From assembly GCA_024137785.1 (NCBI GenBank), contig JAHRHZ010000264.1:16705946-16769945 (forward strand): a stretch of DNA of 64,000 nt, read 5' to 3'. The notes below the pieces were generated by a model that saw only the letters and a list, made by a program, of their open reading frames with translations, was not told the origin of the DNA and made no database searches. The stretch is from Ginglymostoma cirratum. Its lineage: Eukaryota. The stretch's first letter is position 1, and each line of letters opens with the position of its first letter. Of the stretch, positions 1,631 through 51,466 are shown piece by piece. The translations under genes were made by a program, and so were the position numbers.

Positions 1631-3166
1631 TGTTTCTTCAAAGGACTTTGTATGGGAGTTGGAACATAGAATCAAAACTTCTACCTGAATGTTGAGTGAA
1701 GTTAGGAAAATGGTGTCTTCATCCATCCTGAATCTTTGGCTGTCCTTCCTTAATTATGCTCCTTAGATTTGTGATCCCATTTAGCAGGATAGTTTCACAA
1801 ACACAAATCCTGTGGTGACGGCTTTCTGTCAAGGTATATGATCCGCCAGTCACAAGGATCACTGACTAGTTCCTTCTTTGCTGATTCACACAGTGTGACT
1901 GAAACAATTTAAAATTGGAGTACCTGAGTGCAAAACAAAGAGGGCATTAATATTTCAATCATTGACCTGAGAGGAAGATAACCAGCTTGTACTCTCAATA
2001 CATTTTTATCAGTTTTGCGTAAGTTTTAGATGTACATAAGATTTCCGAGGATGATTAAGAACTTTTTAAAACTAGTCTTAACACAGCAGATAGTGTCAGA
2101 TCCAGGCAGCACAAGATAGCTCCTTCCAGGAGTTTAAACAAGATTAGGTTTGGACTGAACTAATGAGTAAAAAGGAATGATTTTAACTCTGCTTGCCAGG
2201 TGAACAGTTAGATTTGCTCCAAATAATGTACATTGATATCTCATGTGTTATGATCCAGCTCCTGGCAATACTCATCAAATCAGATCCCAGAGTGAAACCT
2301 GGACTCTTGGGATCATAAGTTTTACTCTTGCAGTTTTGTTACTTTGGGTGCAATGACTGAATATATACATACAAAGGCTGCAAATATACTTTTAACAAAA
2401 GAACTGACTCTATGACTCTATAATAGAAATTTATCATACAAAAGAAACCTTTGTAATTGATCATTTTGTAAGATCTTACTTTAAACAGCAAGAAAATGAT
2501 CCAGCCTTTTATTCCAGTATTTTGAATTTGCAAACATTCAAATCCAGCAAAGTATCAGACCTATCTTCACTTTAGGATTATTTACACTGATGGAGTTACA
2601 AATATTTCCTTTGAGTGACATTGCATATTTTCAACAATTGTGATTCTCTCTCCTCAAGACAAACAGACATGCTAATTCATTGACTTTTAGTCATTGCATC
2701 CTTCAAAAGAAAAAGACTTTATCCAGCCAAGTCCACTTCGACTGCTAAAATAGCTCAAGACTTCTTTCCAGCTCTGTTAGCCTCAAGGTTGCCGAAAGCT
2801 CAACTACCCTTCTGCCAATATGGCTATTTCCTTCTAAATACAACTTATTGTGGCCTCCTCTTATTTGGTTGTAAAAACTCAAGTCAATGGTAAGCAGAAG
2901 CTAATTCACCAGGTAGTTGATCTTGACCACTTGTTGATCCTTTCTTAAGATAAAAGATCTGACTTTTATACAACTAGAAACCAAAACCCCATTTTCTGCC
3001 CCTTGAGAAGCCAATTTTCCAAATAATAATGACATATTATAAACTTCCATTTTTATCTTTCGTGGAAAATTCAAACTTGAACTTTTACTTTCAGCAAGTG
3101 CAGACAGGATGCAGCTGAGAATTTTTTTAACCCACTTCCTGAGAAATTCAACAGCCTAAGGAAACT

Positions 3167-3266
3167 TTCTGAAGAAGGGTCTAGGCCCGAAACGTCAGCC
3201 TTCCTGCTCCTCTGATGTTGCTTGGCCTGCTGTGTTCATCCAGCTCTACACCTTGTTATCTCTTAA
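3167..3266 (+). mobile_element. ~100-nt Penelope-derived short element with a minimal hammerhead-like core, flanked by a 12-bp TSD
   Basis: CTGAAGA-A-GGGTCTAGGCCC-GAAA-CGTC starts at 3169; direct repeat cctaaggaaact at 3155-3166 and 3267-3278; near-identical antisense copy at 50273-50366. Confidence 0.8.
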
Positions 3267-3436
3267 CCTAAGGAAACTATTGTTCCTTGCCTACTAAATC
3301 AATGAAGCAGGAAGGGGTACTGGGCAAGAAGAATATTAAAGAGATCCAAATCACCTCTGTATGACTTGATGAGCTTTAGGGACTTTCCTAAGATGACTGG
3401 TGATGGCCTCCTGCAATTTGGTATTGCAACCACCAC

Positions 3437-49579: not shown

Positions 49580-50272
49580 CATACAAACAGAAGCAGAATT
49601 AGACGCATTAAGTATGTTCAGTCATTCAATAAGATGTTTGTGTTTCAATTTCCTCATTCCCATCTACCCTCAATGGTCTTTGATTTCCCTTCCTAACAAG
49701 AGTCCCTCAACCTGTATCTTAATAGTACTCAATGATGTTGCCTTCACTGCCTACACTATCTTCTGAGGTCGAGATGCCTAGAGTCGCACAGCACTATGAG
49801 AGAAAATATTCTCCTCATCTCTGTCCTGAAAGAGCAACCCCAAATTTGAAAGAGTATCCCTTGTACTCCATTGAATAAAATCATAACTGATTCACCCTCT
49901 TCTCAGATGTCAGTCCTGCCAACTCAGGAATCAGTTTGGTAAACCTTTGCTGCACTCTCTCTATAGAAAGAACATCCTTCCTCAGATCAGGAGACCAGAA
50001 CGGTACGTAATATTCCAGGTGTGGTCTCATCAAGGCCTTGTACAATGGCAGCAAGACATCCCTGTACCCGTACTTGAATCTTCTTGCTTTTAAGGCCAAT
50101 ATATCATTTGCCTTCTTTACCGCCTGAGGCACGTGTCTACCTTCAGCGACTGGTACACAAGGCACCTAGGTTTCATTGCAGACTCCCCTCTCACAATTTA
50201 TAACCACGTAGATAGCAATCAGCCTTCCTGTTTTTGCTTCCAAAGTGGATAACTCGACATTTACCACATTAT
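49580..50272 (-). mobile_element. 5'-truncated CR1 LINE
   Basis: ORF 49881-50165: AVKKANDIL...DVLLPLYKALMRPHLEYYVPFWSP.LRKDVLSIERVQQRFTKLIP. Confidence 0.9.
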
Positions 50273-50366
50273 AGATAACAAGGTGTGGAGCTGGATGAAC
50301 ACAGCAGGCCAAGCAGCATCATAGAAGCAGGAAAGCTTGACGTTTCGGGCCTAGACCCTTCATCAG
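50273..50366 (-). mobile_element. ~95-nt Penelope-derived short element with an intact minimal hammerhead-like core
   Basis: Minus strand reads CTGATGA-A-GGGTCTAGGCCC-GAAA-CGTC-aagctttcctgct...ccttgttatct; same ends as 3169-3261. Confidence 0.8.
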
Positions 50367-50395
50367 ATGGCATCATCCTTACAGCTCACCATTAG

Positions 50396-50470
50396 ACATA
50401 AGACCGTAAAATCTAGAAGCAGAATAAGGCCATTCAGCCCATTATATCTGTTCTGCCATTTGATCATGGC
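50396..50470 (-). mobile_element. Short CR1 3'-end fragment
   Basis: 'cataagacc...agaagcagaataaggccattcagccc...ctgccatttgatcatggc' antisense CR1 tail. Confidence 0.65.
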
Positions 50471-51108
50471 AGTAGTAACTTCACTTTGTGCCTTAATGGG
50501 ATGACTCAAAAAATTTTGGTTCACTCTTTTCAGTATCACATCATTTTTGTTGTTGCAGGAGGAGAACACCAACATTTCAGAAATACAAGTTTTCCAATTG
50601 TTGAAGTGTCCAAAATTGAGTCATCAACATATTGGCTCAGTCCATTTCTTATTTATGAGGCCTAGATTCTCCAAGAGACTAGTACAAAGGCCAAAATGTC
50701 TATTTTAGATCACTCTTGTTCACATCCCTCAATGTCTATATTTTGAGATGATACAGCCACAGACGCAGCTTTTCATAATCCTTCGGTGAGCTGCTCACTC
50801 CTGACATTAACTGCTTCTACCTCAGCCAGGATTTTCTTTTCAGACAAGAGCAGACTGGTATCCTTGCAAGACCTAACTGATTTACATCTTGGTGGACAGT
50901 TCCTTTCATATACACATTTGTTTCTTCTCCAAGGACATTTCTCACTGTTTTTACACAATTGTTTTGTCTATTCCCAATTGACTAGGAATGAAGCACTCAG
51001 AAAATGAATCCTTTAGAAATTTATTGAGAATATCTTGGGATTGTCCTAGCCTGTTAATTGGGATGTCCCATTCTGACAAAGGCCCAACAAAACTTGTGAA
51101 ACATTAAG

Positions 51109-51466
51109 TCAGAGATAGTAAGAACTGCTGAAGCTGGAGTCAGAGATAACACAGTGTGGAGCTGGAGGAACACAGCAGGCCAGGCAGCATCAGAGGAGCA
51201 GGAAAGCTGATGTTTCGGGTCGGGACCCTTCTTCAGAAATGGGGGAGGGGGAAGGGAGCTCCGAAATAAATAGAGAGAGGAGGGGTGGAGCTGGAGAAGG
51301 TAGGTGGTATGGTGGTAGGTGAGTGCAGTAGGCAGTGGTGGGGATTGGTCAGTGAGGCGGGAGGAGCAGATAGGTGGGAGAGAAGATGGACAGGTCAAGG
51401 AAGTGGAGATGAGAGGGGCTGGGGAAGGTAGGTGGGATGGCAATAGGTGAGTGCAGGTAGGCAGTT
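51109..51466 (-). mobile_element. Penelope-like terminal repeat (pseudo-LTR) fragment with hammerhead-like core
   Basis: Minus strand has a C/T-rich leader, then CTGAAGA-A-GGGTCCCGACCC-GAAA-CATC (51236-51209), a tail shared with the 95-nt unit, and an extension 'ccagcttcagcagttcttactatctctga'. Confidence 0.75.

What the first reader, a model, noticed from the sequence alone, without database searches (positions are those of the whole stretch)
3155..3278. A ~95-nt hammerhead-like unit that appears to move as a discrete mini-element
Seen: the insert begins 2 nt before CTGAAGA, ends just after ccttgttatct and is flanked by a 12-bp direct repeat (cctaaggaaact). An antisense copy 47 kb away (50273-50366) has essentially the same two ends. 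Known: Penelope-like elements carry minimal type I hammerheads in their terminal repeats, and non-autonomous hammerhead retroelements (retrozymes) exist. Inference: this is a very small non-autonomous retroelement mobilised in trans. Both copies start at the 5' edge of the core, not at the GUC cleavage site, so self-cleavage alone does not explain that end.
Basis: partly seen in the sequence, partly recalled or inferred. Interest (0 to 1): 0.7.

Follow-up and report, generated by a model that had tools for sequence, protein, structure and literature searches.

The report
Penelope retroelement end-stub with hammerhead
This 98-base insert with a tiny self-cutting-RNA motif landed as one piece, but it is the end-stub of a very abundant Penelope-type jumping gene, likely copied from the front of that gene's own RNA rather than being a separate mini-element.

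Summary
A 98-nt insert (3167-3264) with an intact minimal hammerhead motif sits between two 14-bp target copies (one mismatch). Two related organisms carry the empty site. The unit is the terminal repeat of a 3.5-kb Neptune-type Penelope-like element, with roughly 700,000 segments in this genome (extrapolated). Its ends are discrete: 3' ends fall at two sites 34 nt apart (141 of 169), matching the published tail and internal priming sites. 5' ends pile up at the ribozyme's 5' edge (45 of 130), not at its cut site (1 of 130). Copies that continue into the ORF start share that boundary, and so does a sister family with different sequence there (22 of 30). Short copies form no lineage of their own. 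Best reading: run-off cDNAs from the 5' end of the autonomous element's RNA, probably its transcription start (inferred; RNA starts untested). Head-to-head pairs almost always join one short and one tailed arm (38 of 43). This scan noted the same pattern before on other DNA. Known kind, with a useful mechanistic clue.

The parts
3153..3166 (+). Left copy of the target-site duplication (14 bp with one mismatch; 12 bp exact at 3155-3166)
   Evidence: single copy at the empty site in organisms B and C
3167..3264 (+). Inserted unit, 98 nt: short-type (tail-less) terminal stub of a Neptune-type Penelope-like element; the last 1-2 T are not in the element reference
   Evidence: absent with one target copy (112 nt skipped) in contigs of runs X5, X10, X16; 99% identical to the family reference
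3169..3196 (+). Minimal type I hammerhead motif: CUGA-N-GA, one extra base, 5-bp helix II, GAAA, ACGU palindrome in place of helix III; predicted cut after 3196; helix I only 2 bp
   Evidence: read from the sequence against the description in PMC4209133; column variation; activity not tested
3265..3278 (+). Right copy of the target-site duplication
50273..50367 (-). Second short-type stub, inside a LINE-like repeat, with about 61-63 host bases missing and no target duplication
51109..51417 (-).

Best explanation
The insert is the terminal, hammerhead-bearing unit of a 3.5-kb Neptune-type Penelope-like retrotransposon, and it was likely made when the element's enzyme started reverse transcription at a fixed internal site and ran off the 5' end of the element's own RNA about 97 bases later. 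Shown: the parent element (unit, RT and GIY-YIG ORF, unit); two fixed 3' ends, 94 and 128 nt from the first core base; one sharp 5' boundary 3-4 nt before the core; target duplications; and the empty site. Inferred by analogy with the anole Poseidon protein: the two 3' ends are internal priming sites, and both target strands are primed. Each strand appears to use a different site, which gives head-to-head pairs with one short and one tailed arm; lone stubs such as this one would keep one arm. Inferred, untested: the boundary is the RNA's 5' end, likely a polymerase II start at the A of an initiator-like motif 4 nt before the core. After run-off the enzyme sometimes appears to jump to another template, which would build composites and pseudo-LTRs. 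The ribozyme motif is a passenger in the stub, because the copied RNA was uncleaved.
For: Parent: L113 is unit-ORF-unit with a period of 3515 nt; RT motifs with YIDD, a CX4CxxC linker and GIY-YIG. 3' ends: 68 and 73 of 169 unselected copies at the two sites, as in PMC11167929. 5' ends: 45 of the 86 copies that reach +2 stop at -6..+2 (5.8% per nt), against 0.08-0.39% per nt further upstream. 24 of 30 ORF-start-bearing copies begin at or inside the unit, 11 of them at -7..+1 (3 of the 30 have N nearby). Composites of [unit + ORF start][unit] reuse the boundary twice. The sister family with AGTT instead of ATTT has the same boundary: 22 of 30 stop within 8 nt, mode 3 nt, against 55 of 81 in this family. 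Extra T at the junction: 17 of 44 lone stubs and 11 of 46 inverted arms, against 0 of 73 long copies, as expected at a template end. No sorting of short from long copies (p 0.52-0.88). 38 of 43 pairs are short+long, and 36 of those 38 have a target duplication, against 0 of 5 same-type pairs.
Against: No RNA 5' end was observed: only assembled contigs were available. In D. virilis Penelope the start lies 46 nt upstream of a 75-nt intron whose end meets the ribozyme, so the start is not at the core edge there. The modal boundary is -3, one base short of the initiator-like A. A cap-derived G could not be shown (most cases explained by target or partner arm). The initiator-like match is recalled, short, and overlaps helix I, so it may be conserved for the ribozyme. 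The 94-nt unit gives the lineage test little power. 33 of 50 lone stubs lack a target duplication of 10 bp or more. The priming model comes from another clade and from in vitro work, which saw no strand difference in start site.
Confidence: 0.62

Rival explanations
1. Same parent and same priming sites, but the 5' boundary is not a transcription start. The RNA is longer, and reverse transcription halts, or the RNA is trimmed, at the 5' edge of the folded or protein-bound ribozyme.
For: The boundary sits at the 5' strand of helix I in both families. The stop rate already rises across the core (0.86% per nt at +24..+13, 1.7% at +12..+3). The anole ribozyme is protein-assisted. In D. virilis the intron end maps to the same edge.
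Against: A hairpin should stall the enzyme at its 3' foot (about +20), not after it has been copied. Helix I here is only 2-3 bp. 41 of 86 copies pass the boundary and then stop rarely, which fits two kinds of template better than one obstacle. This family has no AG at the boundary, and no copy stops at the acceptor-like site near -25 (0 of 40).
Confidence: 0.2
2. One reading: a self-propagating, non-autonomous ~97-nt element that carries its own internal promoter and borrows the Penelope protein in trans.
For: Discrete ends, target duplications and the empty site. About 78,000 lone stubs genome-wide (95% range 38,000-144,000, from 10 copies in 557 kb). D. virilis Penelope has an internal promoter, and pseudo-LTRs alone can direct insertion in trans in a rotifer.
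Against: No short-only sequence variants or clustering; same divergence (median 8.5% against 8.6%). ORF-bearing copies share the boundary. Stubs end at the priming site, whereas the anole protein needs RNA downstream of it. Core integrity is no higher in stubs (8 of 21) than in long copies (14 of 38). The one shared flank found (L027, L028) is a host repeat, not a carried flank.
Confidence: 0.12
3. Ordinary 5' truncation, focused by endonuclease cleavage at, or microhomology with, the ATT just before the core.
For: The anole protein prefers ATT. 5 of 17 target duplications end in ATT. Some junctions share 1-4 letters with the target.
Against: Upstream ends are not enriched at ATT (3 observed against 3.9 expected among 62). 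0 of 40 unselected copies stop at the two ATT motifs at -34 and -30. The sister family has no ATT there and keeps the boundary.
Confidence: 0.04
4. A retrozyme: tandem units self-cleave to a ~97-nt monomer that circularises and is copied back.
For: Head-to-tail joints from the 3' end back to the boundary occur in contigs of the laid runs. Animal retrozymes are related to Penelope repeats.
Against: Only 3 direct neighbours among 313 segments, one of them a unit-unit dimer; no arrays. Ends are not set by the cut site and are not permuted. The motif is minimal, not the canonical type of retrozymes.
Confidence: 0.02

Closest known systems
Endonuclease-positive Penelope-like elements, Neptune/Nematis type (Craig et al. 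2021, PMC8557442; passages read)
   Same: RT, CX2-5CxxC linker, C-terminal GIY-YIG; pseudo-LTRs; heavy 5' truncation; inverted 5'-truncated copy; optional 30-40 bp tail at one end
   Different: The passages read describe 5' truncation without a fixed boundary. Here about half of the copies that reach the core stop within 9 nt of it.
Anole Poseidon PAc (Frangieh et al. 2024, PMC11167929; parts 1-2 of 4 read, supplement text searched, figures not seen)
   Same: Two internal priming sites bracketing the tail, downstream of the hammerhead; both strands cut and extended; uncleaved RNA as template; AT-rich targets
   Different: Different clade. In vitro the two strands did not differ in start site, while here pairs are short+long in 38 of 43. 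In PAc the ORF starts inside the ribozyme; here the first long-frame ATG lies about 165 nt downstream.
Minimal hammerheads of metazoan PLE repeats (Cervera and De la Pena 2014, PMC4209133; parts 1-2 of 4 read)
   Same: Core, extra base after position 9, G10.1-C11.1 pair, palindrome instead of helix III; mostly single motifs ascribed to truncated PLEs
   Different: Helix I only 2 bp (as in the D. virilis variant) and helix II 5 bp; end positions were not analysed in the parts read
Adineta vaga Penelope insertion units (PMC3846280; passages read)
   Same: Inverted repeat, tail on one arm, short target duplication around the whole unit, solo repeats
   Different: Solo repeats there lacked target duplications and were ascribed to recombination or deletion; inversions were ascribed to self-priming on an antisense template. 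Here lone stubs carry duplications.
Animal non-LTR retrozymes (PMC7229834, passages; bioRxiv 10.64898/2026.07.22.740005, parts 1-3 of 5)
   Same: Short non-coding unit with a type I hammerhead, related to PLE repeats
   Different: Retrozymes are tandem repeats, with canonical hammerheads in PMC7229834, expressed as circles. This unit is dispersed, minimal and mostly single or head-to-head.

Membership tests
EN+ Penelope-like element (parent) | ORF with PLE-type RT followed by GIY-YIG endonuclease | tested here: met
   YIDD-type RT motifs and GIY-YIG in natural frames of several copies, all copies broken; Pfam RVT_1 only weak, E 0.0093, below its cut-off, 1 of 8 proteins; motif names recalled
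EN+ Penelope-like element (parent) | Pseudo-LTR repeat on both sides of the ORF, with a hammerhead | tested here: met
   L113 has the unit at both ends, 3515 nt apart
EN+ Penelope-like element (parent) | Optional 30-40 bp tail and inverted 5'-truncated partner | tested here: met
   3' ends at 94 and 128; 60 head-to-head pairs
Neptune clade | CX2-5CxxC motif between RT and endonuclease | tested here: met
   CX4CxxC intact in 5 of 9 long copies examined, broken by a stop in one more; shared with Nematis
Neptune clade | Placement in an RT phylogeny with reference PLEs | not testable with these tools
   No reference PLE proteins were in hand; PDB search gave nothing
Minimal type I hammerhead | Conserved core, extra base after A9, G10.1-C11.1, palindromic 15.2-16.2 | tested here: met
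   All present at 3169-3196; subfamily variation falls at N7, the loop and a U-A/U-G position; no two-sided compensatory change seen
Minimal type I hammerhead | Self-cleavage (as dimer or with protein help) | not testable with these tools
   Needs an in vitro assay; free-energy folds do not give the hammerhead; no Rfam match
Non-LTR retrozyme | Tandem repeats with two or more hammerhead units | tested here: not met
   One unit-unit dimer among 313 segments, no arrays; some head-to-tail joints in other runs
Non-LTR retrozyme | Monomer delimited by ribozyme cleavage, expressed as a circle | tested here: inconclusive
   DNA ends do not follow the cut site (1 of 130); circles could not be examined
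SINE-like non-autonomous element | Own source copies and diagnostic subfamilies, separate from the partner element | tested here: not met
   Nearest-neighbour label test p 0.86, 0.88, 0.52; low power on 94 nt
SINE-like non-autonomous element | Inserts as a unit with target duplication and empty orthologous site | tested here: met
SINE-like non-autonomous element | Internal promoter that lets copies be transcribed from their own first base | not testable with these tools
   Only a recalled initiator-like match at -4; no RNA starts available

The most novel reading that the evidence does not exclude
The ribozyme-headed unit is itself the element's internal promoter and first transcribed sequence, so some of the ~80,000 stubs are re-transcribed from their first base and re-copied in trans: a ~100-nt, SINE-like hammerhead retroelement born continuously from the 5' run-off products of its Penelope parent.
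Probability: 0.12. Interest if true: 0.7.

Novelty: new member of a known kind. Interest (0 to 1): 0.4.

Why it matters
How Penelope-like elements replicate, and what their hammerhead is for, is still open. If the reading holds, this genome records the steps in bulk. The template starts at the ribozyme's edge and is copied uncleaved, so cleavage would remove the first ~32 nt with the cap: a regulatory or disposal role rather than making the template. The two target strands are primed at different fixed sites, and run-off followed by a template jump would explain pseudo-LTRs. Each step can be tested with 5' mapping and the existing anole in vitro system. For annotation: such TSD-flanked ~97 and ~131 nt units should be filed as Penelope stubs, not as new SINEs or retrozymes.

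Tried and rejected
Rfam scan of the window: no match. DNA search of the own genome with the 97-nt unit returned nothing, because very common words are skipped; an exact pattern was used instead. Splicing as cause of the boundary: no AG at the boundary in this family, no ends near the acceptor-like site at -25, no shared upstream exon in the sister family; junctions of internally shortened composites vary and show no common splice letters. Cap-derived G before the first A: ambiguous. 5' transduction by a stub (L027/L028): the shared flank is another repeat. Expression: no RNA holder listed as on record; four runs laid on a unit-ORF junction were contigs, cannot show starts, and gave no verdict. 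The run of organism A did not bridge the window site, so polymorphism is untested. Pfam: 7 of 8 frames without a hit, 5 or more of them probably off-frame; PDB: none. A tree was built but not displayed or used; the nearest-neighbour test stands in for it. Rows dropped: 12 of 415 segments lay in re-fetched loci; segments with N or a locus edge within 30 nt of an end were left out of that end's count; 3 of 7 unselected stretches read N throughout, so the unselected sample is 557 kb. One search printed stop rates 100 times too large under its label; the report gives percent per nucleotide. A paper on dimeric cleavage of small Penelope hammerheads (recalled) is not held. Literature searches surfaced no description of the fixed 5' boundary or of the strict short+long pairing in the passages read; subscription papers, repeat databases, supplementary figures and the preprint's supplements were not seen and may hold it.

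Full report
Coordinates for the family are counted from the first base of the hammerhead core (C of CUGA = 0; window 3169). The predicted cut lies after position 27. The host looks like a cartilaginous fish; that label is recalled from the repeats and from earlier notes, and no call established it.

Observation. The repeat is 12 bp exact and 14 bp with one mismatch. Contigs of three runs from two related organisms cross the site in one piece and join window 3152 directly to 3265. That removes the 98-nt insert and one target copy (X5, X10, X16), so this is a true insertion, younger than the split from those organisms. Copy 2 has no duplication and replaces about 61-63 bases of a LINE-like repeat. 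A third copy at 51238-51142 continues upstream and has a longer 3' end.

Family. An exact 31-mer of the core occurs 7135 times in the 4.36-Gb genome. In 557 kb of unselected sequence there are 93 segments, which extrapolates to about 730,000 (590,000-890,000), of which about 78,000 are lone stubs (regional variation is not covered). Upstream flanks of many copies are shared for up to 2.4 kb or more. A search with the sequence that follows the unit in one copy led to a whole element, unit-ORF-unit with a period of 3515 nt (L113). Natural frames show RT motifs, a CX4CxxC linker and a GIY-YIG domain, the layout given for Neptune and Nematis elements. All copies seen are broken.

3' ends. Among 169 unselected segments (contiguous stretches plus bystanders in fetched loci) with a readable 3' end, 68 end at 89-99 and 73 at 123-136. 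The 34-nt difference is the known tail. In the anole Poseidon element, reverse transcription starts at two internal sites that bracket the tail, both target strands are extended, and uncleaved RNA is the main template. The 3' ends are therefore explained by known chemistry, by analogy.

5' ends. Of 130 unselected segments with an intact 3' end, 44 stop inside the unit, 45 at -6..+2 and 41 further upstream. The stop rate is 5.8% per nt at the boundary and 0.08-0.39% beyond it. One copy stops within 3 nt of the cut site. Four results bear on the cause. (a) Copies that run from the unit into the ORF start, chosen without regard to their 5' end, begin at or inside the unit in 24 of 30 cases, 11 at -7..+1. 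Several are followed by a second unit that begins at the boundary again. The boundary is thus a property of the autonomous element's template. (b) Ends upstream are not enriched at ATT, and none of 40 stops at the two ATT motifs 30 nt further on. (c) A sister family (1190 exact core matches; 53-77% amino-acid identity over matched stretches) has AGTT at this place. It shows the same boundary, 22 of 30 within 8 nt with the mode at 3 nt, against 55 of 81 here. (d) Junctions at the boundary often have extra T: 17 of 44 lone stubs and 11 of 46 inverted arms, against 0 of 73 long copies. Part of this can come from targets ending in ATT, but not in the inverted arms. Together these fit run-off at the RNA's 5' end. 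Both families have a pyrimidine-A step 4 nt before the core that matches the initiator consensus (recalled). This is suggestive only, and in D. virilis the start lies further upstream.

Insertion structure. Lone stubs have duplications of 10-19 bp in 17 of 50 cases (0.3% in shuffled pairs); lone long copies in 4 of 23. Of 60 head-to-head pairs, 43 had both 3' ends classed: 38 short+long, 3 short+short, 2 long+long. A duplication of 8 bp or more surrounds 36 of the 38 mixed pairs and none of the 5 others (control 1.3%). Each pair is therefore one event in which the two target strands were likely primed at different sites. The architecture is described; I did not find this regularity quantified in what I read.

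Is the stub its own element? Short and long copies carry the same subfamily variants at similar frequencies and have the same divergence. They are not each other's nearest neighbours more often than shuffled labels predict, and they do not differ in core integrity (8 of 21 against 14 of 38). Stubs end at a priming site, while the anole protein needs RNA beyond it. Tandem units are rare. The one apparent carried flank is a host repeat. The test has limited power on 94 nt, so occasional re-copying of stubs is not excluded.

Ribozyme. The window copy keeps every core base, a 5-bp helix II and the ACGU palindrome, but has only a 2-bp helix I. Such motifs are thought to work as dimers with low activity. 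Activity was not tested. In a lone stub it is most likely a passenger.

Verdict. A real, young insertion; a stub of a Neptune-type Penelope-like element, most likely a run-off copy of the front of its RNA. Known kind. The fixed 5' boundary, its conservation in a sister family and the short+long pairing are the parts worth following. Earlier notes of this scan, read after my analysis (one search found none by sequence), reached the same reading on other DNA; they are not independent support.

Noticed in passing
L111, L112, L113, L116, L127 (unit and ORF start): A short reading frame starts at an ATG inside the unit (about +44) and ends at a TGA at the end of the tail, in frame with the main ORF in all 5 copies translated; it could be an upstream ORF or a read-through stop.
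   Followed up: no
L093, L095, L108, L110, L117, L119, L120, L124, L130: Composites of unit + 230-600 nt of ORF start joined to the last 60-130 nt before a second unit, with variable junctions. In L095 both inverted arms carry the same junction, so an internally shortened template may have existed as RNA.
   Followed up: partly
L027, L028, L214: Three insertions of the unit at the same position of another dispersed repeat, which reads like the start of the unit there: a possible insertion hot spot.
   Followed up: partly
L221-L250; also L125:5760, and two places in the unselected stretches: At least three further hammerhead-bearing repeat families in this genome. The sister family examined has a branch-point-like motif and a CAG just before helix I, like the intron end reported for D. 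virilis Penelope, and its own short and tailed 3' ends.
   Followed up: partly
joints (window 3166 with 3200-3201): Among inverted joints listed, the partner arm most often ends 3-4 nt after the predicted cut site. This could be a minor class of copies made from cleaved RNA; my own sample had only 3 ends at +27..+32 among 130.
   Followed up: no
window 49800-50480 (-): LINE-like repeat fragments (CR1-like by recall) that host copy 2; related fragments occur at window-adjacent and other loci.
   Followed up: partly
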